DNA of 64,000 bases from an uncultured Bacilli bacterium (lineage in GTDB: Bacteria > Bacillota_I > Bacilli_A > RF39 > UBA660), in assembly GCA_934090735.1 (NCBI GenBank), contig CAKOJR010000002.1, positions 22,337 through 86,336 on the forward strand, written 5' to 3'. Of this stretch, positions 2,816-60,229 are shown piece by piece; position 1 is the stretch's first letter, and every line of letters begins with the position of its first letter. A model generated the notes under the pieces. That model searched no databases and was not told the origin of the DNA. It saw only the letters and a list, made by a program, of their open reading frames with translations. Position numbers and translations under genes: made by a program.

Positions 2816-4999
2816 TTAATTAACAACGTATGGATCTTCTGACGTGCCAGTTCCACCAGAAATTTTAATAATTGAAACTAAACTTATAGCTGGACGAAGA
2901 GCCGAACTGGCATATCCAACAGTACCACCCGTGTAGAACAAATCACCGGCACTTATACCCCAAACAGAAGCTTGCGTATCATCTCCAAGTTTAATAGGTG
3001 TTAAAGTCCACCAATAAGTAGAACTATAACAATTGCCAGCATTTTCTTGTAAATAAGCAACACAATTATTATAAAAAGCAATAGATCCGGAAAATGCTGC
3101 TTCATCTGCGGTTAATAGTCCTATTTTATAGGTTAAATTACCATTATCGTTTGTAGTATCATCAACAGTAAACTTAGATAACTTACCACCATTATTATCG
3201 CTTGGGCATTTTAATGTCGGCTGTTTAGTAGAATTCAATCTATTATACGCAGCGTAATCTGTTACATTTGTTCCATAACCAAGTCCTCCACTTACTGTAC
3301 TCTTATCATTACACCATATTGTATCTGCTAGTTTACTTTCATATGATGCTAAATTATTTGTATACCATGTTTCTAAATTAGTTAAAATTGTGCTTTTATT
3401 TATATTTGCATGTGTATTTGCGTAATCACTAGAACCGGCTTTTCCATACATAAAACCGATATAGGCATTATCATTATCGTTTGAATTAAATGTTGTATTA
3501 AAAGTACTTCCGGAATACCTTGCGAATGCTGCTGAAAAACTGTTATTTGATGATGCGCATGGATTTATAACTTTATTAATATTATCGTTATGAAGAATAA
3601 GCTTTATTGAACCATCTCCAGTTATTCTTACTATTCGCCAGCATTTATTCGCGAACTGGACATAATTATTTTTTACAGTGCCTCTATAATAATAAGATGT
3701 GCCGTAATCATCTTCTGTACTTGCTAAGAGTGCCTCTGTTGTATTTTTATTTGAAGTTATTGCTTTGTAAACAAAACTACTTGACGTTGCACTTACTATA
3801 TAAGCTACCATTTCTAAATCAGTTGTATCCTTCATAGTTCCTGCCGTGTTTGAACCAGCCTGGAAAACACTAAGAGACCCATATTTTAATGGTAAAAATT
3901 TGCCAACTAAGTCCGAATAAGAATTTATGTATGTATCATTCGTTACAGTGGCACCAGTTAAATTAAACTTTGTACCATTCGCTTCATATCCCGTTCCATA
4001 AGTAAAATAATATGCTTGATATGTAGAAGATACACTTTTAGTTTCGGTATATGTTATATCATCTTTTGTATATGCGCTAACTTCTTTTCCTGGCGTTGTA
4101 ATTGGAGATTTTAATTCGTTGTTTTCTCTTAATGCTGCAAGTAATGTTCCGCTTTCTGCATCATACCACCCATCCGGTGCCGGTGCAAATGGTTCGAATG
4201 TAGCATTACATCTTACATTACCATCTGTTATAGATGAAGTTAAAACCCATTTTGAACCATTCCATTTTATACTTTCGTTGGCATCTATCTTCTTACCATT
4301 TTTAGTGCATTCCACAGATGCTGTGTATTTATTTGTCGTTGGAAAGCTTGTGCTTGCTTCTCCATCAATGAATGCGACTACATACAAGTCATCGGGTGGC
4401 CTTGTTTTAACAGTGCCTACCACTGATATTTTTACCTCGTAATCTTTATTCTCTACTTCTTCACTGGTCCAAATATCTTTATTGTTACCATCTAACCACA
4501 TTCTAAAGTTAAATGTACGAGATTCATCTTTTGTGATGCCATCGCCTTTTTTAAGGATATAGTTTTCTGTTATATTATATTTAGATAAGCTTTGAGGTGT
4601 TGATATAGACTCTAGGGTATTTATTATTGTTCCATTTAAGTCATTATCTCCAAGTAAAGATACTTTTACATATTTTGAGTCTACTTTATTAGTTGTACTT
4701 ATTACTGATGCGATAACATAATACTCGATGTAGTTATCACAGTTATTCTTAATTGTGAATGTGTATGGTGTTTGTTCTAAGGCTTCACCATCACTTATTG
4801 GATAGGTATTAAGTAAATTTATTTCATTTTGGCCATTATATTCTAGATCCATACATGATGCTGCTAAGGTATTTGCATCATTTTGACTTGTATAATTTGT
4901 AAATATAGCGTAACTATCGCCGTTTGTCAGAAGAACAACTGCCAGCATCACACATAAAATTAACATTCTCTTTTTATATCTACGGATATTCTGGTTCAT
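2816..4999 (-). CDS. large secreted protein, paralog P1 (SipW/TasA-type signal; CWRIVRI core; WWTLTP..LRPAISL; GTGTSEDPY tail)
   Basis: 727 aa. N-terminus has a K/R-rich n-region, a hydrophobic h-region and SYAIFTN..NTLAASCMDL, comparable to TasA AAFND..ATFASGTLDL. Long identical blocks are shared with 48160-50076 and 57054-58637. Confidence 0.8.
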   Translation of the reverse strand: MNQNIRRYKKRMLILCVMLAVVLLTNGDSYAIFTNYTSQNDANTLAASCMDLEYNGQNEINLLNTYPISDGEALEQTPYTFTIKNNCDNYIEYYVIASVISTTNKVDSKYVKVSLLGDNDLNGTIINTLESISTPQSLSKYNITENYILKKGDGITKDESRTFNFRMWLDGNNKDIWTSEEVENKDYEVKISVVGTVKTRPPDDLYVVAFIDGEASTSFPTTNKYTASVECTKNGKKIDANESIKWNGSKWVLTSSITDGNVRCNATFEPFAPAPDGWYDAESGTLLAALRENNELKSPITTPGKEVSAYTKDDITYTETKSVSSTYQAYYFTYGTGYEANGTKFNLTGATVTNDTYINSYSDLVGKFLPLKYGSLSVFQAGSNTAGTMKDTTDLEMVAYIVSATSSSFVYKAITSNKNTTEALLASTEDDYGTSYYYRGTVKNNYVQFANKCWRIVRITGDGSIKLILHNDNINKVINPCASSNNSFSAAFARYSGSTFNTTFNSNDNDNAYIGFMYGKAGSSDYANTHANINKSTILTNLETWYTNNLASYESKLADTIWCNDKSTVSGGLGYGTNVTDYAAYNRLNSTKQPTLKCPSDNNGGKLSKFTVDDTTNDNGNLTYKIGLLTADEAAFSGSIAFYNNCVAYLQENAGNCYSSTYWWTLTPIKLGDDTQASVWGISAGDLFYTGGTVGYASSALRPAISLVSIIKISGGTGTSEDPYVVN

Positions 5000-5118
5000 A
5001 TTATACCTCTACTATTCTATGGATATTATATAACAACCCCGTGTCCAGTTAATTTTTGCATTTTTTTGCTCTATTAACGTTTTTTTGGATTTTGCCAAGA
5101 AAAAAAGCCTTTTGGGCT

Positions 5119-23112: not shown

Positions 23113-24195
23113 TTAGTCAATTTTGTATGGGTCTTCTGAGGTGCCAGTTCCAGAAACTGATACGGATGGTGCTAAACTAATTGATGGTCTAATTACGTAG
23201 CTACCACCTACTCCACCATTTCCTAAAAGGCCTGAACTAATAGCCCAAATGAAAGCTGAACTGCCATTATAGTTAGTTGGTTTCATAGTCGTCTTCTTTA
23301 CTTGCAATTAGAGCTTCTGTACTGTTTTTACTCGAGGTAATTCTTTTTGTTGTGTAGCTTGATGATGTGGCACTAACTACATAATATATTGTTGTTAAAT
23401 TGGTTGTTGTTTTCTTTGAGCCAGCTGTACTTGAGCTATTGTTAGCTGGAGATGAACTAACTAAATACTTACCAACTAAACCAGAATATGAGTTTGCATA
23501 GGTGGCTGTTGTTACTCCAGTTCCTAGTAGATTAAAATTAATATCATTTGCTTCCTTTCCTGGTGTTGATAGTGGTGTTTTTACTTCGTTGTTTGCAAGA
23601 ATAACATCTTTAAATATAGGAGCAATATCTGCACTTGCTTCTGCAACAACTTTTCCTTTATATTTTTTACTAGTTCCTTGTTCTTTGGTCATGCTTTCGT
23701 CAAACCATAATCTTAAATCATAAGTTTTTGATGATTTAGCTGAGAGATTATCTGTTAAAAGTGCGTAGGTATTTCCATTATTTTGGGATTCCATTATTTT
23801 ACCAGAAGATATGATTATTGCTGAAGTTGGAGTTACTCCATTTTTTATAATTACACCTTTAATTAAAGATGCAGGTATTTCACTTGTGTTTAGCGTTTCA
23901 ACGCCTATGTTAAGTGTTAAATACTGATTACAGTTATTAGTTATTTTAAATGTATAATGATTTCTTTGCAGTCCTTCTTTATCCGGAACTAGATAATTAT
24001 TTGCTAGATTTAAGGCATTAGTAACGTCCCCCGAAGGTTATACTAAAGCAATCGGCTGCACTTAAATTATTGCTACTACTTTGTCTTGTAAAATTTTGTA
24101 ATAGGGCAAATTATGTGCCAATTAGAACAACGATTATAAGCATTAAGTATAATGAAGCAAGTTGTTTTTTATATTGCTTAAGCTGTTGCTGCATT
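23113..24195 (-). pseudogene. decayed copy of the secreted-protein paralog family
   Basis: The ATG at 24195 is out of frame with the signal-peptide region (..KQYKKQLASLYLMLIIVVLIGT). There is an in-frame TAA at 24113-24111 and a frameshift at a C5/G5 run (24028-24032). The frame ends ..EDDYETN* at 23273. The tail (..IRPSISL..GTGTSEDPYKID) is in another frame, and the roughly 250-300-codon CWRIVRI core is missing. Confidence 0.85.
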
Positions 24196-24288
24196 GCAAT
24201 CCCCTATCTTTCTATATAAAGAATTGCAAAATAACGGCACTATTATGTCAAGTTAATAAGCTATTTTATTTTATCTATTTAAAGTTAA

Positions 24289-43262: not shown

Positions 43263-44273
43263 TTAATTATCTATTATCCATTCGTTAAGTGGTTCTATTT
43301 GCGTACCACAATATCCACATTTTCCTTTTGTAGCGTCTACTGATGCACCACAATTTTGACATTTAATGAAATTTATACCATTTTTTAGTTCAAAAATGTC
43401 CATGTTTACTCTTTTCATATTGTAAGTATCAACTTTATATTCAGATTTTATGTTTCCATTATTGTATCTTACTATTCTCACATATGCTTTTACTTCAACA
43501 TTTAATATGGAGTTATTATTGTTTTCAGTAAACTCGTCATAATCTAAGATATCATAGTCGATGATATCTTCCTGATTGTAGTATTTTTTTGCCACTTCGT
43601 AATTTAGATTATTAAAGAATTTCTTTTTATCAATTTTGGTTCTTTCCCAAAAGGCTTCTTGAACGGCTTTTTGATTATCTTTATATTTTTTTATTGGTCC
43701 TAATACTATGTAACCATCAATTACATAAAAGAAGTAGTATAGAATTGCAGATAAGATAAAACCATAAATAAAGATTTTAGAAATATCGTAGGCGTTAAAG
43801 GTTCTTGAAGTTGACCTTATAAAGCTTTCTGCTAATATTAAGCTGAATATTAAATCGATAATACCAGTTATAATACGGTATTTATTACTTCTTAGAATTC
43901 GGTCATAGTGGTACTTACTTCCTAAATCTTTTTCAGTGTAGTCTAAATTATAATATGTTCCACAGTATGGACAACCATCAATAAAATTTTGGAGATTAGC
44001 TTGCATACCACAGTTAGGACATGTATATGTTTTATCTTCATCTACTGTTATGAATGTGTATTCTATTCTTGAATCAAACTGGCTTTCTGTTTTTACTAGT
44101 TTATCCTTAATGTAATATTCTTTTTGACATCTAATTCCGTTTCTTATATTATCGTTGTGACTGTTATTAGTGTTTTTTTCTAAAATTTTATCGCCAACGA
44201 TGTATTTTGTTTTGATGTTTATGCCATACTTTTTTAATTTATTGTTTTGACTATTATCAGAAATTAAAGGCAT
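43263..44273 (-). CDS. membrane protein with two Cys4 zinc ribbons flanking two TM helices
   Basis: CPNCG..CPYCG and CQNCG..CGYCG, with TM helices at about residues 145-190. Its SD overlaps the stop of the upstream gene. Confidence 0.6.
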   Translation of the reverse strand: MPLISDNSQNNKLKKYGINIKTKYIVGDKILEKNTNNSHNDNIRNGIRCQKEYYIKDKLVKTESQFDSRIEYTFITVDEDKTYTCPNCGMQANLQNFIDGCPYCGTYYNLDYTEKDLGSKYHYDRILRSNKYRIITGIIDLIFSLILAESFIRSTSRTFNAYDISKIFIYGFILSAILYYFFYVIDGYIVLGPIKKYKDNQKAVQEAFWERTKIDKKKFFNNLNYEVAKKYYNQEDIIDYDILDYDEFTENNNNSILNVEVKAYVRIVRYNNGNIKSEYKVDTYNMKRVNMDIFELKNGINFIKCQNCGASVDATKGKCGYCGTQIEPLNEWIIDN

Positions 44274-44284
44274 AACTGCACTTC

Positions 44285-44659
44285 CTATCTATTATTATTG
44301 TTGTTATTGTTATTGTTATTATTATTTGATGATGAGCCCCCATGGTAACCGCCACCTCCAGAGCCTCTTACAACAGGATTATAATGAGGTATAACTGAAA
44401 AATAAGTATTAGTTAATTTAACCCCATCAATTGTGCTGTCGGTGCATATAGCAGGCATTATTTCTGGAGTTATTCCATCTTGATAATTTAATTTAAGTGT
44501 TAAGCCATTTTTGTTTCCAATAACAATTCCATTTTCATTGTTAGCAAGATAATTATATATTTTATTTAGATTTTCTTCTGATAGTTGATAATATTTCGTT
44601 AAATCGATGCATCTTTTATATCTTATTAACTCTTCATAGGTTTCTGGTTCTTTATTCAT
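44285..44659 (-). CDS. 124-aa soluble protein with Gly-rich/poly-Asn C-terminal tail (candidate rSAM substrate or partner)
   Basis: Ends ..NPVVRGSGGGGYHGGSSSNNNNNNNNNNNNR. Its ATG overlaps the rSAM TGA (ATGA at 44659-44656). Confidence 0.6.
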   Translation of the reverse strand: MNKEPETYEELIRYKRCIDLTKYYQLSEENLNKIYNYLANNENGIVIGNKNGLTLKLNYQDGITPEIMPAICTDSTIDGVKLTNTYFSVIPHYNPVVRGSGGGGYHGGSSSNNNNNNNNNNNNR

Positions 44660-46392
44660 TTTTTAAACTCCTTATCTAAATAGTAGAATTCTATATTTTG
44701 AAACGGTAGATTTATTGCTTCGATGTGATAATAAGCGTTATTTTTTTGCTTTAGGTAATGATAATCTCTTAGTGATGAAGTTGTGAAAAATATATTATTT
44801 GGGTTTTCTTCAGAATAGTATTTCTTATATTCTGCAAGCATATTTGTTAAGTTAATTACATAATAATCTTTTGAAACGTTATCATCTAATATACCCTTAT
44901 ATATTTGATTAGTTGCTAAGTGTCTTTGCTTGGTGCGTCCTTCATCTCCATAAGTAACTAGATTACCACTAAGAAGCATTATGTATAATGAGTTATTTTC
45001 TTGGTAGTCACAAACTTCTTCAATTAAATGTTTTTTCATCAGCAATTCTACTTTATTTTCTGGTGTTATATAAATTATCTCTCTAGATTTTTTAGTTATT
45101 TGAGATGCTAGTTTGTATTCTTTTTCATCAATTTTTAGAATGAAGCTGTCATTATCATATATATATTTAAGATTAGCATCTTTACTTATTATTTCTTCTA
45201 AAGATGGATAATCATTTTTGTTTCTAGTTGGAACATATTTGTCTTTATCATCAAGTCGCATATTTTTTACATATTCGTAAACAAATTCATCATTATATTC
45301 ATCTTTTTCATAACCACGGTCTTGATACATTTGTTGTTGTAGTTTGCAGGTGTAACTTTTATTTGTATGGTATGTATTTTTTACAAATGGACAACCAGTT
45401 TTGCATAAATAAAGGTATCCACATTTGGTACATTCGTCGTTAAGTGGTTCTTTATTGTGATTTAGAAAAATTTTATTCTTGGCAGTTGTTAAAATTTCTT
45501 CGACTGAATTATCATAGATATTGCCATAATAGTAGTCAGGATTTTTTTGGCCTCTTACGCAGGAATATATGTCACCATTTTTTTCAAGAAGGAAAAACTT
45601 CTCACCACAGTTATCACAGTTAGTGCAATATTCCGGGCCGAATTCGTCAAACCATGGTCCGTTTACGCCTTGATCTAGGTCTGTGCCATCAAACTCTTCA
45701 TGCATTTTTTTATAAAGCTCTAATTGTTCTTCTTCAGTAAGATGGTGTAGCATACCATTTGAATTATAATCAAAACCAATCATAAAATTAAAATCGTTCA
45801 TATCAAGACAAGTATTTTCATGTAAAAATTTTATATCTTTAATCATATCGTCAAGATGAGCAAAATGTTCTTTAAAAATTGTTGCAGATACTTTCTTTTT
45901 GTTAGGAATATCTTTTAATAATTCAATATTTTTTAATATTTTATCTAATGTTTTTTGATTTCCTTTTGTTACTCTATATTTGTCGTGAAGTATTAGGGGC
46001 AAATCTAAACTGCCTGATATAGATACATTAAACTCTTTTATTGTTTCTATGTGTTCTTCTAAGTTATACATGTTAGTTTTAATGTGAGGACTACTAATTT
46101 TAAATCCAGCATTAGTAATTATATCTTTATTTACATTGTAGTAGTTGTCTATATATTTAATTAATTCATGAAATTCATTTTTAGATAATGTTGTAACTTC
46201 TCCACCGTGTAAGGAAATATTAAAAGGAATTACGTTGCTTTCCCGAAATTTATCAATAGCAAATTTAAGAGTATTAAGTGAGTTTTTGTCTGTTTTTTCA
46301 TCTATCGTATTATCTTCTAAATAGCAATACTTGCATCCCATATTGCAGGCCATTGTTGGAACATATAGTAAATGTATAAATTTATAATTCAT
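44656..46392 (-). CDS. radical SAM enzyme with SPASM-like auxiliary Cys clusters and ~200-aa C-terminal extension
   Basis: CNMGCKYC (CX3CX2C) at residues 16-23. Later clusters are CTNCDNCG..YSC and CTKCGYLYLCKTGCPF. 578 aa. Confidence 0.8.
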   Translation of the reverse strand: MNYKFIHLLYVPTMACNMGCKYCYLEDNTIDEKTDKNSLNTLKFAIDKFRESNVIPFNISLHGGEVTTLSKNEFHELIKYIDNYYNVNKDIITNAGFKISSPHIKTNMYNLEEHIETIKEFNVSISGSLDLPLILHDKYRVTKGNQKTLDKILKNIELLKDIPNKKKVSATIFKEHFAHLDDMIKDIKFLHENTCLDMNDFNFMIGFDYNSNGMLHHLTEEEQLELYKKMHEEFDGTDLDQGVNGPWFDEFGPEYCTNCDNCGEKFFLLEKNGDIYSCVRGQKNPDYYYGNIYDNSVEEILTTAKNKIFLNHNKEPLNDECTKCGYLYLCKTGCPFVKNTYHTNKSYTCKLQQQMYQDRGYEKDEYNDEFVYEYVKNMRLDDKDKYVPTRNKNDYPSLEEIISKDANLKYIYDNDSFILKIDEKEYKLASQITKKSREIIYITPENKVELLMKKHLIEEVCDYQENNSLYIMLLSGNLVTYGDEGRTKQRHLATNQIYKGILDDNVSKDYYVINLTNMLAEYKKYYSEENPNNIFFTTSSLRDYHYLKQKNNAYYHIEAINLPFQNIEFYYLDKEFKK

Positions 46393-46400
46393 GTTGCACC

Positions 46401-48047
46401 TCAGTATCTAGGGTATACTTTTGTAATATTTGTTGGGCTTTCTTTAAAAGCACGCTCGTTTACATATGTTATTGATGGGATTGATATATTGTATAAACTA
46501 TAGCATCTTCTAAAAGCAGATGAGCCTATTTCTTGTAAATTACTTCTTTCACTTATAATAACTTCAGAAAGGCTTGAAGCTTCATAAAAAGCATGAGCTC
46601 CTATTCTTTTTACTTTGTCTGGAATTGTTATACTTTTTAGTGAACTGCAATATTCAAAGGTGTCCCCTCTTATTTCTGTTAAGTTTTCTGACAATTTAAT
46701 GGTTTCTAATGAAGTGGCTCCGTAAAAAGATTCACCGCCTAAGAATGTTAAAGTATCTGGTAACTCAATTTCTTTTATTTTGCTAGCATTATAAAATGCT
46801 CCACCGCCAAGATATTCTAACTCTTTTGGTATATTTACAGAAACTAAATTTTTGCAGTTTTTAAATGCTTGCCCTCTTATTTCTTTGATGGTATCTGGGA
46901 GTTTAATACTTTCTAGAAATATCATGTTTGAAAAAGTATTACCTCTTAAGCTGATAACTTTTTTATTGTTATGAGTTTCTGGAATTGTTGCAGTTTTGAA
47001 GTTTGTTAAACCATATGCGTAGAATCTAACACCATAACCATCTTCAGTTTTTTCGTAAAGAATTTTTGGCGTAGAAAATATTATTAGTGGGAAGATAATT
47101 GCTATTAGGATGCTAATTACAAAAGATAGCCTGCTATTATCAGTTGTTAAATTACTTTTTTCTAGCATTATTATATTTGATATTTTTTCTTCTGGTCTAG
47201 CTTTTACTTGCTTTATAAGATATTTCATGAAGTTATATTTTCTTGAAAGTTTAAAGAAGATAAAGAGAAGGATAATTCCAATAATATATGTGCTTAAAGG
47301 AAAGTGAAAAAAGATTATTGTAATGTAGAAACAAAGTAATACAGAAAAAATAATATTTAATACTTTTTTCCTTTTTAAAACTTCATTTGGTATTAATTTA
47401 TTTGGCTCTTTGACTCCTAAATTGGCCATTTGTCTGCGTATAAATTCTTCAACGACCTCTTCTTCTGATAAAAGATACATTGGGTCAAAGTCAGTTATCT
47501 TTTTTATTGTTTGAGATAAATCTTTAGCAACAGCATTTGATAATGTCTTTTGGGCATCAAATGGTTCCCCGCAGTTTGTACAAAAATGATCAGTTATAAG
47601 TAGCGTTGTACCGCATTTGCTACACTTTAATTCTAAATTTTGTGGTTTTGTTTGAGCAGCTAGTTCGGCAAATTTTATAGCTTCTCTCTTTTTAAGTTTT
47701 CCAGATATGAAATAACAAATTGGAACAATAATAAAAGCTCCTATAAATACACTTATAAAATCTACTATAGCGATGCTTGTCGTAACAAAAAAGTCAAAAA
47801 ATAGTAATATTGCAGCTCTTATTGCAAACAAGATCCAGAAAAGTTTCTTACTATTTACCGGCGAAAATGCTTTAGCTATTGGTAGTAAGACAAAAATTGA
47901 CATATGTATAGAAACAAATGCTTCAATAAATAATGCAGATTTTATATCAAAATCGCCATTACTAGGCATGGTATAGGCATAAACTAGACTTGGATAAAGT
48001 AATAAACTATATATCAACATTATTTTAACAATTTTTTTAAACTTCAT
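46401..48047 (-). CDS. polytopic membrane protein with internal zinc ribbon and C-terminal BspA-type leucine-rich repeats
   Basis: Several TM helices, CSKCG..CTNCG, and repeats of the type LESIKLPDTIKEIRGQAFKNCKNLVSVNIP (LRR_5-like). Confidence 0.65.
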   Translation of the reverse strand: MKFKKIVKIMLIYSLLLYPSLVYAYTMPSNGDFDIKSALFIEAFVSIHMSIFVLLPIAKAFSPVNSKKLFWILFAIRAAILLFFDFFVTTSIAIVDFISVFIGAFIIVPICYFISGKLKKREAIKFAELAAQTKPQNLELKCSKCGTTLLITDHFCTNCGEPFDAQKTLSNAVAKDLSQTIKKITDFDPMYLLSEEEVVEEFIRRQMANLGVKEPNKLIPNEVLKRKKVLNIIFSVLLCFYITIIFFHFPLSTYIIGIILLFIFFKLSRKYNFMKYLIKQVKARPEEKISNIIMLEKSNLTTDNSRLSFVISILIAIIFPLIIFSTPKILYEKTEDGYGVRFYAYGLTNFKTATIPETHNNKKVISLRGNTFSNMIFLESIKLPDTIKEIRGQAFKNCKNLVSVNIPKELEYLGGGAFYNASKIKEIELPDTLTFLGGESFYGATSLETIKLSENLTEIRGDTFEYCSSLKSITIPDKVKRIGAHAFYEASSLSEVIISERSNLQEIGSSAFRRCYSLYNISIPSITYVNERAFKESPTNITKVYPRY

Positions 48048-48136: not shown

Positions 48137-48161
48137 AAAAAAGATAGGTGTTAAACCTATC
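48137..48161 (-). terminator. rho-independent terminator after surface paralog P2
   Basis: GATAGGT-ttaac-ACCTATC followed by T6 on the - strand. Confidence 0.7.
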
Positions 48162-50076
48162 AATTAACAATGTAAGGGTCTTCTGAAGTGCCTGTGCCAC
48201 CTGAAATTGTTGTTGAGGATATAAGACTTATCGAAGGTCGAAGTCCAGTACCATCTTCAATGTCGCCTCGCACATTAAAATTATTAAATTCACCACTAGC
48301 CTTGACACCATAAATGAGAGAAATATAACCATCGTTATTTTGAGGTGACAAAGTCCACCAAGATGACCCACTTGCATTTTCGAGTAAGTAATAATTAGGA
48401 TTAAATCCTCCATTAAATCCACCTGCAAAAGAAATTTCATCAGCTGTTAATAATCCTATTTTATAAGTTAAATTACCATTACCATTTGTCGTATCACTTA
48501 CAGTAAATTTAGATAACTTGCCACCATTGTTGTCATTAGGACATTTTAGTGTTGGCTGTTTAGTTGAATCTATTCTATTATATGCACCATAATAGGTAAT
48601 ATTTTTGGCATAACCAAGCCCACTTGAAATACTTTTATCATTACACCATATTGTATCTGCTAATTTACTTTCATATTCAGTTAAATTATTTTTATACCAT
48701 GTTTCTAAATTTGTTAGTATTGTACTTTTATTTGTATTTGCATGCGTGCTTGCATAATCACTCGATCCGACCGTTCCATACATAAATCCAATGCTTGCAT
48801 TATCATAATAGTTATCATTAAATGCGGTTGTGTATGAACTTCCAGAATATCTTGCAAAGGTTGCTGTATTACTATTATTAGCAGATGAACATGGGTTAGA
48901 AACTTTATTTATATTATCATTATGTAAAATTAATTTTATTGAACCATCACCAGTTATTCTAACTATTCTCCAGCATTTACCCGCAAACTGCACATAATTA
49001 TTTTTTACAGCACCCCTAAAATAATACGACGTTCCATAATCATCTTCTGTGCTTGCTAAAATTGCTTCAGTTGTATTTTTATTTGATGATATTATTTTAT
49101 AAGTAAAACTATCTTTAGTTGCACTGACTATATAATATACCCTGCCTAAATTAGTTGCAGGTTGCATTGTACCTGCGGTACTTGATCCAGCATAATATAA
49201 AGAACTATCCGTCAAATATTTACCAACTAAACTAGAGTACGAATTTGCATATGTATCACTAGTTACTGCTGTTCCAGTTAAATTAAATTTTGTTCCATTT
49301 GCTGTCCATCCCGTTCCATACGTAATATAATGATTTTGAGCACTCGTTGATACACTTACTGTTTTACTCTCAGCGTCATCTAAAGTATAGGCACTCACTT
49401 CTTTACCAGGTACTGTGATTGCTTGTTTAACTTCATTGTTTTCACTCAATGTTGCAATAAATGTTCCACTATTTGCTTCATACCATCCTGATGGAGCTTG
49501 GGTAGCAAGGTTGCCTTTTTCATCTGTAATTTCAACATGAGCATTGAATGTCGCTCCTTGATTACTGTTTTGGTCTATGTCTTTTAATGGATAATATATT
49601 TTTAACTGATATGTATGAACTGCACTATCTGCTTTTAGAAAGTTACCTTTACCTAGTTCTAGTGAAGTACCTGTTAAATTAGTTTTTGATATAGTTGGCA
49701 CTACTTTCCCATTATCACTTGTATTAATACTTACTAATTCATATTGTAATGGATCAGAAGTAATAAATGTATTAGAGTCTACTACTAAAGTAAGTTTATA
49801 ATACATCTCAGCATCTGTATTATTATTACCAGTTACAGTTATTATTTTAGTAGCCCATACTTCATCTCTTGGGTATACTCCACTTAAACTTATTGTATTA
49901 CCACCATTATAGTTTATTTTCATAGTACCACCTTCAGCGGTTACTGTTGTTTCATCTTCCGAAGTTATACCTGAGGTAAAGTAAGCATAAGAAGCCCCTA
50001 CTGCTAGTACTATACATAATAGCATTACATAAACCATAACTTTTTTCTGTTTCTTTTGGATATCTTCTAGGTTCAT
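48160..50076 (-). CDS. large secreted protein, paralog P2
   Basis: 638 aa from the ATG at 50076 (MNLEDIQKKQKK..LAVGASYAYFTS). It shares the CWRIVRITGDGSIKLILHNDNINK block and the GTGTSEDPYIVN tail. The track's extra 16 codons run into the promoter. Confidence 0.8.
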   Translation of the reverse strand: MNLEDIQKKQKKVMVYVMLLCIVLAVGASYAYFTSGITSEDETTVTAEGGTMKINYNGGNTISLSGVYPRDEVWATKIITVTGNNNTDAEMYYKLTLVVDSNTFITSDPLQYELVSINTSDNGKVVPTISKTNLTGTSLELGKGNFLKADSAVHTYQLKIYYPLKDIDQNSNQGATFNAHVEITDEKGNLATQAPSGWYEANSGTFIATLSENNEVKQAITVPGKEVSAYTLDDAESKTVSVSTSAQNHYITYGTGWTANGTKFNLTGTAVTSDTYANSYSSLVGKYLTDSSLYYAGSSTAGTMQPATNLGRVYYIVSATKDSFTYKIISSNKNTTEAILASTEDDYGTSYYFRGAVKNNYVQFAGKCWRIVRITGDGSIKLILHNDNINKVSNPCSSANNSNTATFARYSGSSYTTAFNDNYYDNASIGFMYGTVGSSDYASTHANTNKSTILTNLETWYKNNLTEYESKLADTIWCNDKSISSGLGYAKNITYYGAYNRIDSTKQPTLKCPNDNNGGKLSKFTVSDTTNGNGNLTYKIGLLTADEISFAGGFNGGFNPNYYLLENASGSSWWTLSPQNNDGYISLIYGVKASGEFNNFNVRGDIEDGTGLRPSISLISSTTISGGTGTSEDPYIVN

Positions 50077-50101
50077 ATTATATCTACTTCTTTCTATTAT
50101 T

Positions 50102-50129
50102 AGTATATAATACACCCCCCCCATGTCAA
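50102..50129 (-). promoter_or_regulatory. promoter of P2 with G8 tract in the spacer
   Basis: - strand TTGACA(50129-50124)-16 nt-TATACT(50107-50102). The spacer contains G8 (C8 on the + strand, 50115-50122). Confidence 0.55.
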
Positions 50130-56071: not shown

Positions 56072-56967
56072 TCAAATCCTTTAGTTAACATATCATAGCT
56101 AACCTCTTTAAGTGGTGCATTCATATAGAAATAGTTATAGTCGTAGTCATCACTTAAAGTTTCCCTTATATTCTCTGAAAGTGTAATTTCCGCATTGAAA
56201 ACAAAGCCATCATTAGTTTCCTCTGTTGTGCTTATAATGCCATTATTGTTTAGTCTAGTTGATAATTCTTGATATGAATTAAATGAATTCATGTAGGCAG
56301 TAATATCTGAAGTATCGTTATTGGTAAATGTGGTTTTTACTGTTTTTAGGGTATTATTTTCAAAAGAATATATATATGTCTGATTATCAAGTTCGCAAGT
56401 TAAAGTGTTTGCTTCGCTTACTTCTGGATAATCATCGGTTGTAATATTTACAATTTTACCATAATAATTTTCACCAGTATTAATTGTTAATTTATATAAT
56501 GTAGTGCTTACGTTTGTTACTTCTTTATTGATATTACCTGTTAGTTTTACTCTTGTTAGTAAGTCTTTGGTCCCATAAATTTCTAAAAATAGTTTGTGCT
56601 CGTCTAAATTGAAATCTATATTTGATGACATATCAAAACTTATTTTATTTCCTTCTAAAGTAAAATTGGTAAGTTTGATATTTTGATAAGAAACCGCACT
56701 AGTTTTATTTAAAATTTGTCTATCTTCAGCAGGCACGTCTGGCTGTGGCGTTGGCTCTTCATCTTTAGTAAAGCTATTTAATATTTGTCTTACTAATACT
56801 GAAAAGGAATCATTGTTGTTGTTAATATAATCTTTAATATATGGAAGTCCAAAACAGGTTCCTAAAAGTAATATAAAGCAGAATAAAACAAAAAATGGTT
56901 TACTTGATTTTTCTTTTTTTAATACTCCTAATGTAATAGGTTCATTGTTTTCATTATCACTTTTCAT
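56062..56967 (-). CDS. membrane-anchored hypothetical protein
   Basis: 301 aa with one N-terminal TM (FFVLFCFILLLGTCFGL). No family recognised. Confidence 0.55.
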   Translation of the reverse strand: MKSDNENNEPITLGVLKKEKSSKPFFVLFCFILLLGTCFGLPYIKDYINNNNDSFSVLVRQILNSFTKDEEPTPQPDVPAEDRQILNKTSAVSYQNIKLTNFTLEGNKISFDMSSNIDFNLDEHKLFLEIYGTKDLLTRVKLTGNINKEVTNVSTTLYKLTINTGENYYGKIVNITTDDYPEVSEANTLTCELDNQTYIYSFENNTLKTVKTTFTNNDTSDITAYMNSFNSYQELSTRLNNNGIISTTEETNDGFVFNAEITLSENIRETLSDDYDYNYFYMNAPLKEVSYDMLTKGFDCK

Positions 56968-57012
56968 AACAAATCCCTTTCATTCTAAAAGTATTATATC
57001 AAAAACCAAAAT

Positions 57013-57039
57013 AAAAAAAAAGTAGTTAAGTTAAACTAC
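57013..57039 (-). terminator. rho-independent terminator after surface paralog P3
   Basis: GTAGTT-taactt-AACTAC followed by T9 on the - strand. Confidence 0.65.
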
Positions 57040-57053
57040 GTTGTATTTGAGTG

Positions 57054-58637
57054 TTAAACTACTTTATAAGGATTTTCTGGGGTACCGGCTCCAATAACAT
57101 TAACACTTGAAACTAAGCTTATTGATGGTCTGATGCCATATAAATTATCAACGTCATCGTAAACAAAGATTGTTTCATCATATGACTGATAAACAATCCA
57201 AACTATTGCTTTATAATTGTAATAAGCATAAGGCGACAAACTCCACCATTCGGTGTTTCCTGTATTTTCTTTTAAATATGTTAATTGATTATTTATATTG
57301 AATGCATAGCCTGCATAAGCTATTTCATCTGCTGATAATAGACCTATTTTACTTTGTACTTTATTTAGGGCTCCATTGCATTTTAAACTTGGGCCGGTTT
57401 CGTTATCATCATTCTGTCTTAATCTTTTTGTTGCTTCATAATAAGTCTCATTATCATTGTAACCAAGACCATTCATTTTCCAACCGTCGATACGGTAATC
57501 AGTATCAGTTACGTTTGTCTTATCTGTACACCATATTGTATCTGAGATATTTTCTTCGTATGAAGCTAAATTATTCGTATACCATGTTTCTAAATTAGTA
57601 AGTATTGTGCTTTTGGTTGTGTTAGCATGCGTGCTTGTGTAGTCATTTACCTCTGTTTCGCCATACATCAAACCAACATAGGCGTTGTCATCTACATTTG
57701 TATTAAAGGCACTTCTATATGTGCTTCCCGAATATCTTGCAAAGGCAGCGTCATTACTATTGTTAGTTGATGAGCATGGATTTATGCTCTGATTTATATT
57801 ATCATTGTGTAAAATTAGCTTTGTTGTCCCATCACCTGCTATTCTTACTATGCGCCAACATTTATTTGCAAACTCTAAATAGTTATTTTTTACGTTACCT
57901 CTAAAATAGTAAGAGATTCCGTAATCATCTTCTGCATCCGCCAGTAGTGCTTCACTAGCCAATGATATATCTGTTCCTGGAGTTGTTAGTGGAGTATTTA
58001 ATTTGTTATTATTGAGAATTGCTTTATTTAATAATATGGGAGATTGAATGGCACTGGTTATTACTACAATCTTGCCTGCCCATATTTTGTCTAGGCCTTG
58101 TTCTGTTGTGACCGCACTATCCATCCATATTCTTAAATCATAACTCTTTTCTTCATTTGAATTTAAGCCAGTATCTACTATTATATATCCTTTACTGTTA
58201 TTATCTAAATCTGTTAATGTTTGGCTTCCAAGTATTACTGAAGAATTTTTAGTAGTATCCTTTGGAGATATATTTACTTTAATATAGTTATCTTTTAGAT
58301 AAGCTGAGTCTGTGCTTGTTCTGTATGTGCTTTTAATTGTGATATATGCTTTTACGTAACTATCACAGTTATTCTTGATTATAAAAGTAAATGGTGTTTG
58401 TTTTAAACCATCTTTATCTTTTATTGGAAATGCATCTGTTAGTTCTATTTTAGAAGTATCTTCGGTTAGAGTTGTGCTAAAGCATGTTCTTGAAGCTAGT
58501 GTATTAGCTTCGCTTTGACTTAAATATAATCTAAACCAAGCAAAAGATACACCGATTATACAGATTACTGTAATTAGCAGACTATAATATATTTTTAGTT
58601 TTTTCTTTTTATTATCAATATTAACTTCTTGGTTCAT
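57054..58637 (-). CDS. large secreted protein, paralog P3 (short form)
   Basis: 527 aa with ..IIGVSFAWF..EANTLASRTCFSTTL, the CWRIVRIAGDGTTKLILHNDNINQ block, WWSLSP..YGIRPSISL, and the tail GAGTPENPYKVV. Confidence 0.8.
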   Translation of the reverse strand: MNQEVNIDNKKKKLKIYYSLLITVICIIGVSFAWFRLYLSQSEANTLASRTCFSTTLTEDTSKIELTDAFPIKDKDGLKQTPFTFIIKNNCDSYVKAYITIKSTYRTSTDSAYLKDNYIKVNISPKDTTKNSSVILGSQTLTDLDNNSKGYIIVDTGLNSNEEKSYDLRIWMDSAVTTEQGLDKIWAGKIVVITSAIQSPILLNKAILNNNKLNTPLTTPGTDISLASEALLADAEDDYGISYYFRGNVKNNYLEFANKCWRIVRIAGDGTTKLILHNDNINQSINPCSSTNNSNDAAFARYSGSTYRSAFNTNVDDNAYVGLMYGETEVNDYTSTHANTTKSTILTNLETWYTNNLASYEENISDTIWCTDKTNVTDTDYRIDGWKMNGLGYNDNETYYEATKRLRQNDDNETGPSLKCNGALNKVQSKIGLLSADEIAYAGYAFNINNQLTYLKENTGNTEWWSLSPYAYYNYKAIVWIVYQSYDETIFVYDDVDNLYGIRPSISLVSSVNVIGAGTPENPYKVV

Positions 58638-58661
58638 ATATACTCACTATCTTTCTATTAT

Positions 58662-58691
58662 TAGTATATAATACACGCCCCCCCATGTCAA
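58662..58691 (-). promoter_or_regulatory. promoter of P3 with G8 tract in the spacer
   Basis: - strand TTGACA(58691-58686)-18 nt-TATACT(58667-58662). The spacer contains G8 (C8 on the + strand, 58677-58684) plus an extra CG relative to the P2 promoter. Confidence 0.55.
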
Positions 58692-58825
58692 GTTAATATT
58701 TGGTTAATTTTATTCTGTGCCTGTAAAATTTGTACTGGTATTGTACTGATATACTTAAAGTGGATGACTCTGAAAGTTAAGTGAACAACTAAAATAATAA
58801 CGCAACAAAAAAGTTAAACTTAAAT

Positions 58826-60229
58826 TTAACTTTCTTTAATTCCGTCTAGACTAAAGCTTTTTGCTTCAGTAATTTTAACATTAATAATTTTACCAATATC
58901 TTCTTTAGGTGCATCAACATTAACTAACTTCATGTTTTCAGTGTAGCCACATACTTTAGTGTCATCTTTTTCACTTATTCCAGTTATAAGGACTTTTACG
59001 GTTTGATTTAGCATTTTCATATTGCTTTCTTTAGAATATTTATTAATTAATTCATTAAGTTCATGTAATCTATTTTCTTTTTCTTCTAAAGTTACGTCAT
59101 CTTTAAGTGTTGCTGCTGGGGTATTTTCTCTTGGTGAGAATATAAAAGTAAATGCTCCATCATATTTGCATTCATTAACAACTGCTAAGGTATCTTCAAA
59201 ATCTTCTCTAGTTTCTCCTGGGAAACCTACAATAATGTCTGTTGTAATACTAGCGTTTTTAACTTTGTTTCTAATCTTATTATATAAAGTTAAGTAATCA
59301 TCTTTACTGTAACGTCTACCCATTAATTTTAGTATTCTGCTTGAGCCACTTTGTAATGGTAAATGAATATATGGCATAATATTATCACGCTGTGCAATAA
59401 CATCTATCATTTCATCAGTAAAGTCCCAAGGATGACTAGTTACAAATCTAATTCTTGGAATTCCTGTGTCACTTACTAGTTCTAAAAGTCTTGCAAAAGT
59501 TACATCATCTAAATCTTTTCCATAAGCATTAACGTTTTGTCCTAGTAAGGTAATTTCTTGATATCCGGCTTCTTTTAATTCTTTAACTTCTTTGATTATG
59601 TCTTCTGACTTTCTACTTCTTTGTTTACCTCTTGTATAAGGAACAATACAGTAAGTACAGAATTTATCACAGCCATACATTATATTAACCCATGCAGATA
59701 TTTTTGAGTCTCTTTTGTAAAGGTTACCGAATTCAATGACGTCTCCTTCTTTGCTGTATACTTCGATATCTTGTTTTCCATAGTAATTAGTAAGCATTTT
59801 AGGTAAGTCATTCATGTTATGAGTACCAAATACAATATCTATGTATGGATGTTTTTCTCTAATTTCATTTACTACACTTTCTTCTTGAGCCATGCAGCCA
59901 CATAAACCAATAATAAGGTCTTTCTTTTCTTTTTTTAGATGCTTGCATCTTCCAAGAAAGCCGAATACTTTATCGTGAGCATTTTCTCTAATGGCACACG
60001 TGTTTAAAATTATAAAGTCAGCATTTTCCATCTCTTCTGTTTTAATATAACCTAAAGACTCAATTAAAGCACTTATTTCTTCAGAGTCATGAACGTTCAT
60101 CTGACAGCCATAAGTTTTAATAAAATATTTTTTTCCTTTAAATAGTTCATTATTTTCTCTATTTTCGTAAATATAATTAACTTTACTTTGATTTCTAATT
60201 TTTGCATCATTCATATTAGGTAAATGCAT
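58826..60229 (-). CDS. miaB: tRNA (i6A37) methylthiotransferase MiaB
   Basis: UPF0004 N-terminus FIKTYGCQMNVHDSE, radical-SAM motif GCDKFCTYCIVP, and a C-terminal TRAM domain. The start may be a few codons downstream. Confidence 0.85.
   Translation of the reverse strand: MHLPNMNDAKIRNQSKVNYIYENRENNELFKGKKYFIKTYGCQMNVHDSEEISALIESLGYIKTEEMENADFIILNTCAIRENAHDKVFGFLGRCKHLKKEKKDLIIGLCGCMAQEESVVNEIREKHPYIDIVFGTHNMNDLPKMLTNYYGKQDIEVYSKEGDVIEFGNLYKRDSKISAWVNIMYGCDKFCTYCIVPYTRGKQRSRKSEDIIKEVKELKEAGYQEITLLGQNVNAYGKDLDDVTFARLLELVSDTGIPRIRFVTSHPWDFTDEMIDVIAQRDNIMPYIHLPLQSGSSRILKLMGRRYSKDDYLTLYNKIRNKVKNASITTDIIVGFPGETREDFEDTLAVVNECKYDGAFTFIFSPRENTPAATLKDDVTLEEKENRLHELNELINKYSKESNMKMLNQTVKVLITGISEKDDTKVCGYTENMKLVNVDAPKEDIGKIINVKITEAKSFSLDGIKES

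What the first reader, a model, noticed from the sequence alone, without database searches (positions are those of the whole stretch)
58662..58691. Second G8 tract at the homologous position of the P3 promoter, but with an 18-nt spacer
The ~75-bp promoter/leader module (CTTTCTATTATTAGTATATAATACAC..CATGTCAAGTTAATATTTGG on the + strand) is duplicated upstream of P2 and P3. In P3 the spacer reads T-GGGGGGGG-CG-TGTAT (C8 at 58677-58684), which gives TTGACA-18 nt-TATACT. The two copies therefore sit at 16 and 18 nt, one step on either side of the 17-nt optimum. Single-nucleotide slippage could raise expression of either copy independently: gain of one G in P2, or loss of one G in P3.

P1 keeps the ATTAAC-TGGACA module but has only G4. 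There TGGACA is 11 nt from TATAAT, although TTAACT-16-TATAAT is an alternative register. The pseudogene has no G tract. This looks like a family in different states of a variable promoter.
Basis: partly seen in the sequence, partly recalled or inferred. Interest (0 to 1): 0.7.

Follow-up and report, generated by a model that had tools for sequence, protein, structure and literature searches.

The report
Slippery poly-G promoter, secreted-protein gene family
A run of G's between the two halves of this gene's promoter is real (seven G's and a 17-base gap, not eight and 18), and it belongs to a widespread, length-variable poly-G promoter that probably turns a large family of secreted-protein genes up and down in uncultured human-gut bacteria.

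Summary
On the gene (-) strand P3 reads TTGACA-T-GGGGGGG-C-G-TGTATTA-TATACT. That is G7 (58678-58684) interrupted by a C (58677), with a 17-nt spacer, not G8 and 18 nt.

The general idea holds up well. The same module (ATTAAC-T[TAG]GACA-[CT]-Gn-…-TATA[AC]T-…ATAGAAAG-ATGAAC) lies upstream of dozens of paralogs of a family with more than 6,400 members. These come from uncultured gut "Tenericutes"/Bacilli MAGs.

In 376 kb retrieved by protein similarity alone, all 23 G≥7 runs lie in this spacer, against 1.2 expected. Near-identical promoters from different samples differ by ±1-2 G, and the tract is often the only indel in 1-2.5 kb. The spacer length is what is conserved: mode 16 nt, range 14-18.

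The best explanation is a slipped-strand, spacer-length phase or "volume" switch, as in Neisseria porA, Treponema tp0126/tpr and Mycoplasma vlp. P3 here appears to sit at the canonical optimum, partly stabilised by the interrupting C. Its closest ortholog (L002) and a matching promoter (L108) carry G8 with 16 nt. P1's tract has collapsed to G4.

This is a new member of a known kind. No expression data or read-level data were available.

The parts
58686..58691 (-). P3 -35 hexamer TTGACA
   Evidence: 6/6 match
58669..58685 (-). P3 promoter spacer, 17 nt: T-G7-C-G-TGTATTA
58678..58684 (-). P3 poly-G tract, G7 (C7 on the + strand)
58676..58677 (-). The interrupting C (58677) and the trailing G (58676). 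The P3 ortholog L002, the matching promoter L108 and paralog P2 have plain G8 here.
   Evidence: alignment
58663..58668 (-). P3 -10 hexamer TATACT
   Evidence: 5/6 match
58638..58662 (-). P3 leader with the conserved ATAGAAAG box (58651-58658) and a GTGAG Shine-Dalgarno-like site
   Evidence: consensus of 60 non-redundant promoters
58713..58718 (-). Upstream ACAGAA box, the P3 variant of the family's conserved CATAGAATA box about 22 nt upstream of the -35
57054..58637 (-). P3 coding sequence, 527 aa. It has an N-terminal Lys-rich and hydrophobic signal/anchor and a conserved C-terminal domain.
57012..57039 (-). Likely intrinsic terminator of P3 (GTAGTT-TAACTT-AACTAC followed by T9). This would make P3 monocistronic.
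   Evidence: read directly. The consensus scan did not call it because the stem is AT-rich.
50102..50129 (-). P2 promoter: TTGACA (50124-50129), 16-nt spacer holding G8 (50115-50122), TATACT (50102-50107)
48160..50076 (-). P2 coding sequence, 638 aa, followed by a terminator at 48143-48161
5025..5047 (-). P1 promoter remnant: TGGACA (5042-5047), C, G4 (5037-5040), TTGTTA, TATAAT (5025-5030), 11-nt spacer. The tract has collapsed.
   Evidence: Orthologs next to parE carry G8 or G9.
2816..4999 (-). P1 coding sequence, 727 aa
23116..24251 (-). Family pseudogene with promoter remnant TTGACA (24246-24251)-17-TGCAAT, no G tract, and premature stops

Best explanation
The G run is the variable element of a sigma-70-type promoter whose -35 to -10 spacing is set by a slippage-prone poly-G tract. 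Replication slippage adds or removes a G, which changes the spacer by 1 nt and so changes promoter strength for one family member at a time. This is a phase or 'volume' switch.

The promoter is a conserved, portable module. It drives many paralogs of a very large family of probably secreted or surface proteins in uncultured human-gut 'Tenericutes'/Bacilli.

In this genome:
- P2 is in the family's usual state (G8, 16 nt).
- P3 has G7-C-G and 17 nt, the canonical optimum. Its run is shorter and interrupted, so it is probably expressed and comparatively stabilised.
- P1's tract has collapsed to G4 (11 nt).
- The pseudogene has lost the tract.

Shown: the anatomy, conservation, enrichment, and length polymorphism between samples. 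Inferred: slippage within a lineage, the effect of length on transcription, and which length is ON.
For: Anatomy:
- TTGACA-17-TATACT is the best promoter match in the region, and P2 is TTGACA-16-TATACT.
- The promoter lies about 25 nt upstream of a start codon with a Shine-Dalgarno-like site.

Conservation: the same module with G6 to G11 lies upstream of about 25 of 79 protein-retrieved loci from at least 6 MAG species, and in about 60 gut-metagenome contigs.

Enrichment and specificity:
- 23 of 23 G>=7 runs in 376 kb lie in this spacer, against 1.2 expected.
- 57 of 64 assessable poly-G promoters drive family genes. Three of the seven misses are a wrongly picked start codon, so probably 60 of 64.

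Length polymorphism between near-identical sequences:
- 31 of 76 pairwise promoter comparisons at >=95% identity differ in tract length.
- The tract is often the only indel. L118 and L141 have 891 bp with 0 mismatches but G9 vs G10. L141 and L169 have 2,506 bp with a single gap.
- Four promoters with identical flanks carry G10, G9, G10 and G9.
- One identical protein (P0102) seen in 8 samples has G9 six times and G8 twice.

Not random assembly noise: another locus is G9 in 10 of 10 samples.

The conserved quantity is the spacer:
- The mode is 16 nt in both the subfamily with a 6-nt -10-proximal segment (G9) and the one with a 7-nt segment (G8). The range is 14-18.
- Homologous modules with decayed tracts sit at 17 nt.

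P3 locus: the 96%-identical ortholog L002 and the matching promoter L108 both have G8 and 16 nt, and only this assembly has the extra C.

Precedent: poly-G between -35 and -10 with optimal transcription at 17 nt in T. pallidum tp0126 and N. meningitidis porA (PMC7864442). Spacer indels switch vlp, maa2 and vmm in mycoplasmas (PMC2268961).
Against: - There are no expression data and no read-level data. All tract lengths are assembly consensus calls, and homopolymers are error-prone. At least one variant contig may come from a long-read assembly (L205).
- A/T runs of 8 also differ in 12.5% of pairwise comparisons.
- The modal state is 16 nt rather than 17, so it is not clear which length is ON.
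- One locus was invariant in 10 samples.
- The window encodes MutL. The host is therefore probably mismatch-repair proficient, which should damp mononucleotide slippage.
- The interrupting C in P3 rests on a single assembly, because L001 is the same contig as the window.
- The protein's function and location are not established. There is no Pfam or NCBIfam hit, and the structure model failed.
Confidence: 0.7

Rival explanations
1. The poly-G run is a fixed cis-element, such as a regulator-binding or DNA-structure element in the spacer, and it does not switch. The length differences between contigs are sequencing or assembly errors, or slow neutral drift.
For: - G9 is strongly modal, and one locus is G9 in 10 of 10 samples.
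- A8/T8 runs also vary between near-identical contigs.
- MutL is present.
- Conserved ATAGAA boxes flank the promoter and could be regulator sites.
Against: - Variation rises steeply with tract length: 27% of comparisons differ at length 9, 62% at 10 and 100% at 11.
- It is seen in high-coverage Illumina contigs and is often the only indel in kilobases.
- Subfamilies with different tract lengths converge on the same spacer length. This points to spacing, not to a sequence-specific G-binding site.
- A fixed element would not need a homopolymer, and decayed versions keep the spacing but not the G's.
Confidence: 0.15
2. Tract length matters, but through the positioning of an activator or repressor bound at the conserved upstream box relative to RNA polymerase, not through -35/-10 spacing itself. 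Bordetella fim promoters and meningococcal opc work this way.
For: - A conserved CATAGAATA box lies about 22 nt upstream of the -35, and an ATAGAAAG box lies just after the -10, in nearly all members.
- The modal 16-nt spacer is sub-optimal for an unassisted promoter.
Against: - The tract lies between two near-consensus hexamers, so any length change must alter their spacing.
- No regulator has been identified.
- The distance from the upstream box to the -35 does not depend on the tract.
Confidence: 0.1
3. The switch is translational. An ATG overlapping the -35 (GACATGGGG) starts an N-terminally extended ORF, and the G tract shifts its frame.
For: In P2 this ATG is in frame with the gene, giving the 654-aa ORF 48160-50124.
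Against: - Most family promoters read GACAC-Gn and have no ATG there.
- There is no Shine-Dalgarno sequence before that ATG.
- The conserved start is ATGAAC, which has a Shine-Dalgarno-like site and encodes the signal-peptide N-terminus.
- In P3 the upstream ATG frame stops after about 16 codons, as read from the sequence.
Confidence: 0.02
4. The promoter is switched by inversion. An 11-nt perfect inverted repeat (58617-58627 / 58690-58700) brackets the P3 promoter and start codon.
For: The repeat exists. It recurs in P3-like paralogs, because both arms lie in conserved sequence.
Against: - Only 62 nt lie between the arms.
- The repeat is absent at P2.
- The flipped configuration was not found in any of 220 loci, and all 19 pattern matches have the normal orientation.
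- No recombinase gene lies nearby.
Confidence: 0.02

Closest known systems
Neisseria meningitidis porA promoter (poly-G between -35 and -10)
   Same: Both have a poly-G tract in the spacer of a sigma-70-type promoter for a surface protein. Expression is graded by spacer length and is best at 17 nt (as summarised in PMC7864442).
   Different: - porA is a single locus in a cultured Gram-negative pathogen.
- Here one module is shared by many paralogs in uncultured low-GC gut bacteria.
- The modal state here is 16 nt.
- The function has not been tested here.
Treponema pallidum tp0126 and tpr (E, G, J, F, I, L) poly-G promoters
   Same: - Both involve a paralogous family of putative surface proteins with a G7-G11 tract in the promoter.
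- tp0126 has the tract between -35 and -10, with optimal transcription at a 17-nt spacing.
- G9 is the predominant length for tprL (PMC7864442).
   Different: - In the tpr genes the tract lies just upstream of the transcription start, and 8 or fewer G's is the permissive state.
- The proteins and the lineage (spirochaete) are unrelated.
- Length variation within isolates and reporter effects were measured there but not here.
Mycoplasma hyorhinis vlp, M. arthritidis maa2 and M. mycoides vmm promoters
   Same: Indels in the -35/-10 spacer turn genes for variable surface proteins ON or OFF (PMC2268961). vlp is a multigene family in a reduced-genome relative of Bacilli.
   Different: - From my own knowledge, those tracts are poly-A, poly-T or TA repeats, and the products are lipoproteins.
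- Here the tract is poly-G in a 30%-GC genome.
- Here the proteins have a signal/anchor N-terminus and no lipobox.
- The host here appears to keep MutL.
Invertible promoters of gut Bacteroidales (invertons)
   Same: Functionally analogous: stochastic ON/OFF control of many surface-structure loci in gut commensals (mentioned in PMC11868660).
   Different: The mechanism is different: site-specific inversion between inverted repeats by a recombinase. No flipped form and no recombinase were found here.

Membership tests
Simple-sequence-repeat phase-variable promoters, spacer type (porA / tp0126 / vlp class) | A homopolymeric or short-repeat tract lies between recognisable -35 and -10 hexamers | tested here: met
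   P3 is TTGACA-[T G7 C G TGTATTA]-TATACT and P2 is TTGACA-[T G8 TGTATTA]-TATACT.
Simple-sequence-repeat phase-variable promoters, spacer type (porA / tp0126 / vlp class) | The tract is over-represented relative to base composition and is conserved as a tract while its flanks diverge | tested here: met
   23 of 23 G>=7 runs in 376 kb lie in this spacer, against 1.2 expected. The tract is present in at least 6 MAG species with diverged upstream sequence.
Simple-sequence-repeat phase-variable promoters, spacer type (porA / tp0126 / vlp class) | Tract length is polymorphic between closely related strains | tested here: met
   - 31 of 76 pairwise comparisons differ, and the tract is often the only indel.
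- Promoters with identical flanks carry G9 or G10.
- One identical protein has G9 or G8 in different samples.
- P3 itself is G7CG here and G8 in its ortholog.
- Caveat: all lengths are assembly consensus calls.
Simple-sequence-repeat phase-variable promoters, spacer type (porA / tp0126 / vlp class) | High-frequency, reversible length change within a clonal population | not testable with these tools
   This needs read-level data or culture. Only consensus contigs were available.
Simple-sequence-repeat phase-variable promoters, spacer type (porA / tp0126 / vlp class) | Tract length changes transcription of the downstream gene | not testable with these tools
   No transcriptome or reporter data. 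The effect is inferred from the canonical 17-nt spacing rule and from selection on spacer length.
Simple-sequence-repeat phase-variable promoters, spacer type (porA / tp0126 / vlp class) | The controlled gene encodes a surface or secreted determinant | tested here: inconclusive
   - The N-terminus has a Lys-rich region followed by about 20 hydrophobic residues.
- There is no Pfam or NCBIfam hit.
- 6 of 56 members give a weak DUF6273 hit.
- The structure model is unusable (pLDDT 40).
Invertible promoters (invertons) | Inverted repeats flank the promoter, both orientations are seen, and a recombinase is present | tested here: not met
   There is an 11-nt inverted repeat at P3 only, with 62 nt between the arms. 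No flipped orientation was found in 220 loci. The flanking genes encode no recombinase.
Translational (in-ORF) homopolymer phase variation | The tract lies inside the translated reading frame | tested here: not met
   The tract is 41 nt upstream of the conserved start codon. The upstream ATG exists only in the GACAT subfamily and is in frame only in P2.

The most novel reading that the evidence does not exclude
The poly-G promoter is a portable cassette bracketed by conserved ATAGAA boxes, and it has spread across a very large secreted-protein family. Several copies occur per genome: at least 3-7 in the MAGs sampled. Together they give prevalent, uncultured and apparently mismatch-repair-proficient gut commensals a multi-locus, combinatorial expression switch. 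Selection holds the default state one step below the optimal spacing (16 nt), so that gaining a single G turns a member fully on. This would be a contingency-locus 'phasome' outside the classical pathogens.
Probability: 0.35. Interest if true: 0.7.

Novelty: new member of a known kind. Interest (0 to 1): 0.5.

Why it matters
Repeat-driven, multi-locus phase variation is known mainly from pathogens such as Neisseria, Haemophilus, Campylobacter, Helicobacter, Treponema and mycoplasmas. A recent review asks whether that restriction is real or a database bias (PMC11868660).

Here a conserved, length-polymorphic poly-G promoter controls many members of a family with more than 6,400 proteins, in uncultured, genome-reduced gut bacteria. 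I found no paper linking these lineages to phase variation.

If the switch is real, these commensals vary their secreted or surface repertoire stochastically. That bears on immune (IgA) and phage pressure in the gut. It also means tract lengths should be read carefully in metagenomic assemblies. The idea is directly testable from existing metagenomic reads.

For this window, the practical result is a correction: P3 is at 17 nt with an interrupted G7, not at 18 nt with G8.

Tried and rejected
- **Structure of P3.** AlphaFold2 on a 56-sequence alignment gave mean pLDDT 40 and pTM 0.30. The model is unusable, so I ran no fold search.
- **Protein annotation.** A profile search against PDB sequences found nothing at E<=1. 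Pfam and NCBIfam gave nothing for P1-P3. Only 6 of 56 relatives gave a weak DUF6273 hit.
- **Viral contigs.** The promoter pattern had 0 hits, so this is not a phage element.
- **Rfam.** The region 56900-59000 had no match at E<=1, so the leader holds no known RNA element.
- **Other contigs with the identical P3 protein.** I tried to see the two other contigs that encode it. The tool collapses them as "similar places" even with a 200-nt flank. The interrupting C therefore could not be confirmed independently.
- **Inverton hypothesis.** Rejected.
- **Translational frameshift through the upstream ATG.** Rejected, because most promoters read GACAC.
- **Chance occurrence.** Rejected.
- **Metagenome pattern scan.** About half of the 120 hits were unrelated G5 matches in high-GC environmental contigs, and I excluded them with a GC filter.

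Full report
**1. What is in the sequence**

- The window is about 30% G+C chromosomal DNA. It carries parE, dnaE, mutL, aspS, argS, nrdD, scpA/scpB and tRNA genes.
- Three paralogous genes lie on the - strand: P1 (2816-4999, 727 aa), P2 (48160-50076, 638 aa) and P3 (57054-58637, 527 aa). A degraded fourth copy lies at about 23116-24022.
- On the gene strand the P3 upstream region reads ...AAATATTAAC-TTGACA-T-GGGGGGG-C-G-TGTATTA-TATACT-AATAATAGAAAGATAGTGAGTATAT-ATGAAC.
- The C run on the + strand is 58678-58684, which is seven bases. Base 58677 is G on the + strand.
- A G7 search finds one match here and two overlapping matches (that is, G8) at 50115-50122.
- The consensus scan calls TTGACA-17-TATACT (58691 to 58663, 11 of 12 matches) for P3 and TTGACA-16-TATACT (50129 to 50102) for P2. 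Each is the best promoter-like site in its region.
The real values are G7 interrupted by a C, and 17 nt.
- The rest of the description is correct:
  - the promoter/leader module is duplicated;
  - P2 is G8 with 16 nt;
  - P1 is G4 with TGGACA-11-TATAAT or TTAACT-16-TATAAT;
  - the pseudogene has no tract.
- These are the only G/C runs of 6 or more in the 64 kb.

**2. The gene and its unit**

- P3 starts with a Lys-rich stretch followed by about 20 hydrophobic residues (MNQEVNIDNKKKKLKIYYSLLITVICIIGVSFAWF...). P2 has ...VGASYAYFTS here.
- From memory this resembles SipW/TasA-type signal peptides. I did not test that.
- The three paralogs share a conserved C-terminal domain (DDYGTSYYFRG...KCWRIVRI...WW.LSP).
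- No Pfam or NCBIfam model hits them. Only 6 of 56 relatives reach a weak DUF6273 match. No PDB sequence relative exists, and the AlphaFold model was unusable.
- P3 is followed by an AT-rich hairpin plus T9 (57012-57039), and P2 by a terminator. Each promoter therefore appears to serve one gene.

**3. Relatives**

- P3 has more than 6,400 database relatives, almost all from metagenome assemblies.
- In species-representative genomes the family occurs as many paralogs per genome. The records are labelled uncultured Tenericutes (UMGS1021, UMGS1372), uncultured Bacilli (Hadza MAGs) and similar. These are the genome-reduced gut lineages discussed as RF39/RFN20 in PMC7301438. I did not place this window phylogenetically.
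- About 25 of the 79 loci retrieved by protein similarity carry the same module upstream of the start codon: ATTAAC-T[TAG]GACA-[CT]-G6-10-TTGTTA-TATA[AC]T-...ATAGAAAG...-ATGAAC.
- In this unbiased set plus the window (376 kb, 30.5% GC) there are 23 runs of G>=7. All 23 lie in that spacer, against 1.2 expected anywhere.
- A pattern scan of metagenome contigs added about 60 more family promoters from human-gut samples. The rest were chance G5 matches in unrelated DNA.
- Of 64 poly-G promoters with a readable downstream ORF, 57 hit the family profile. Three of the seven misses are a wrongly picked start codon, so the true figure is probably 60 of 64. Three others drive a second protein type.

**4. 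Does the tract vary?**

- I clustered promoters by their flanks, allowing at most 3 mismatches over about 100 nt. One group of ten has G7, G8 (twice), G9 (six times) and G10. A group of four with identical flanks has G10, G9, G10 and G9. Another pair has G10 and G11.
- Among contig pairs at least 95% identical, 31 of 76 promoter comparisons differ in tract length. The tract is often the only indel in the alignment. Examples:
  - L118/L141: 891 bp, 0 mismatches, G9 vs G10.
  - L141/L169: 2,506 bp, 1 gap.
  - L111/L169: 1,704 bp, 1 gap.
- Variability rises with length: 27% of comparisons differ for runs of 9, 62% for 10, and 5 of 5 for 11. For A/T runs it is 1.5% at length 7 and 12.5% at length 8.
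- One identical protein (P0102) found in eight samples has G9 six times and G8 twice, with as little as one substitution in the following 3.1 kb.
- As a control on random assembly error, another protein (P0096) has G9 in all ten samples.
- These are consensus calls, so slippage within a population is inferred, not seen.

**5. What is conserved is the spacing**

- Over 68 non-redundant promoters the spacer is 14 nt once, 15 nt 12 times, 16 nt 40 times, 17 nt 13 times and 18 nt twice.
- The subfamily with a 6-nt segment next to the -10 (TTGTTA) is modal at G9. The subfamilies with a 7-nt segment, including this window's TGTATTA, are modal at G8. Both give 16 nt.
- A purely mutational attractor on tract length would not produce this agreement, so selection seems to act on spacer length.
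- Homologous modules whose tract has decayed (L015, L018, L031) have 17 nt (4 of 6 against 10 of 57, Fisher p=0.02, small numbers).
- Tracts interrupted after the seventh G occur three times: this P3 (G7CG, 17 nt), L012 (G7AGG, 17 nt) and L150 (G7AGG, 18 nt).

**6. The P3 locus specifically**

- L002 comes from another sample and is 96% identical to the window over 2 kb. Its protein is 97% identical. L108 carries the same promoter and leader as L002, but its contig ends before the gene. P2 is the paralog in this window.
- All three read TTGACA-T-G8-TGTATTA-TATACT. Only the window, and L001 which is the same contig, has the extra C.
- The allele is either a C insertion into G8 or a G-to-C change in a G9. 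Either way it gives a 17-nt spacer with a shorter run.
- I could not confirm the C independently, because the two other contigs encoding the identical protein were not shown.
- At the P1 locus, syntenic orthologs next to parE have G8 or G9 (L105, L041, L065), whereas the window has G4. That tract has collapsed.

**7. Mechanism**

- The best-supported reading is a slipped-strand switch of promoter spacing.
- Under the canonical sigma-70 rule (17 nt optimal, 16 and 18 weaker, 15 poor) the predicted order in this genome is P3 > P2 >> P1 from this promoter. That order is an inference.
- The data leave one puzzle. Slippery promoters sit mostly at 16 nt, while non-slippery homologs sit at 17. This would fit a family kept mostly "low" and one step from "high". 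I cannot tell from sequence which length is ON.
- The window encodes MutL, and RF39 genomes are reported to keep mutSL (PMC7301438). Switching would therefore occur in a repair-proficient background, as in Neisseria, and not in a repair-deficient one, as in Campylobacter or mycoplasmas. That comparison is from my own knowledge.

**8. Alternatives**

- A static element plus assembly noise remains possible (about 0.15). It fits poorly with the length dependence, with the tract being the only indel, and with the convergence on spacing.
- A regulator-positioning variant is compatible with the conserved ATAGAA boxes on both sides of the promoter.
- A translational switch through the ATG in GACATGGGG is rejected, because most members read GACAC.
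- An inverton is rejected: the 11-nt inverted repeat is at P3 only, and no flipped form occurs in 220 loci.

**9. Comparison with known systems**

- It works like meningococcal porA and T. pallidum tp0126, which have poly-G between -35 and -10 and an optimum at 17 nt.
- It resembles the T. pallidum tpr family in coupling a G tract to paralogous putative surface proteins, with G9 predominant for tprL (PMC7864442).
- It also resembles the spacer switches of mycoplasma vlp, maa2 and vmm (PMC2268961).
- The structural, enrichment and between-strain polymorphism criteria for membership are met. High-frequency reversibility and an effect on transcription could not be tested.
- I found no paper describing phase variation in these gut lineages.
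- I classify it as a new member of a known kind.

**10. Verdict**

- Interest is moderate (0.5). The mechanism is familiar. Its family-wide use in prevalent, uncultured and apparently repair-proficient gut commensals is new, and it can be tested directly from existing reads.

Noticed in passing
window 58713-58718 and 58651-58658 (P3); the same layout at P2 and in nearly all family promoters (e.g. L016, L024, L087-L196): A conserved ATAGAA motif lies on both sides of the promoter: CATAGAATA about 22 nt upstream of the -35, and TATAGAAAG just after the -10. The two form a direct repeat about 60-65 nt apart. They could be regulator sites or the borders of a duplicated promoter cassette.
   Followed up: partly
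window 58617-58627 and 58690-58700: A perfect 11-nt inverted repeat (AATATTAACTT) brackets the P3 promoter and start codon, with 62 nt between the arms. It is absent at P2. No flipped configuration was found in 220 loci, so it is probably a coincidence of two conserved AT-rich segments.
   Followed up: yes
window 5025-5047 (P1 promoter) vs L105, L041, L065: P1's tract is G4 (11-nt spacer), whereas the syntenic orthologs next to parE in related genomes carry G8 or G9. This is a collapsed tract, probably a locked state.
   Followed up: partly
window 16089-17867 (-): This gene encodes MutL (MutL_C, DNA_mis_repair and HATPase domains). The host therefore probably has mismatch repair, unlike several classical organisms with homopolymer phase variation. 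No mutS gene lies next to it.
   Followed up: no
window 50122-50124 (ATG on the - strand); ORF 48160-50124: The ATG formed by the end of the -35 hexamer (GACATG) is in frame with P2 and would add 16 codons that run through the G tract. It is not in frame in P3, and it is absent from most of the family (GACAC).
   Followed up: yes
L004 1417-1422 vs L035 (loci syntenic with the window's P3 position, downstream of the MiaB-like gene): In another species the syntenic gene has a C6 run in the spacer (TTGCAA-ATACCCCCCAAATGTTA-TATACT). A related MAG has CCATCT at the same place.
   Followed up: no
L071, L095, L121 (and probably L109, L124, L145, L102, L150): A sister promoter type (GACTTTTT...ATATTAACTTGACAT-G7-9-TTATTTA/TTATTAG-TATAAT/TACAAT) drives a different protein (MNKYKEKIGNILNKVKGNKR...) that does not hit the family profile. 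The poly-G module is therefore not strictly tied to one gene family.
   Followed up: partly
L197 and L201: Two metagenome contigs from another context share TATTACAAATATTAAATAATTTAACTTGACAT-Gn-AGCTGCGGTGATAATCG and differ in the tract, G7 vs G10. I did not examine what lies downstream.
   Followed up: no
window 43263-48047 (-), downstream of P2: This block holds a BspA-type leucine-rich-repeat protein with a zinc ribbon (46401-48047), a radical-SAM/SPASM protein (44656-46392), a small ORF and another zinc-ribbon protein. It may be a peptide-maturation cassette next to the variable gene.
   Followed up: no
L093 (- strand) position 9772: This is the only G>=7 run found outside a promoter in 762 kb of low-GC loci. 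It is a G7 inside a family coding sequence, at the conserved YYFRGG motif.
   Followed up: no
aligned contig pairs among L003-L201: A/T runs of 8 differ in length in 12.5% of comparisons between contigs at least 95% identical. This is either real slippage or a baseline of homopolymer assembly error, and it should be kept in mind for the G-tract counts.
   Followed up: partly
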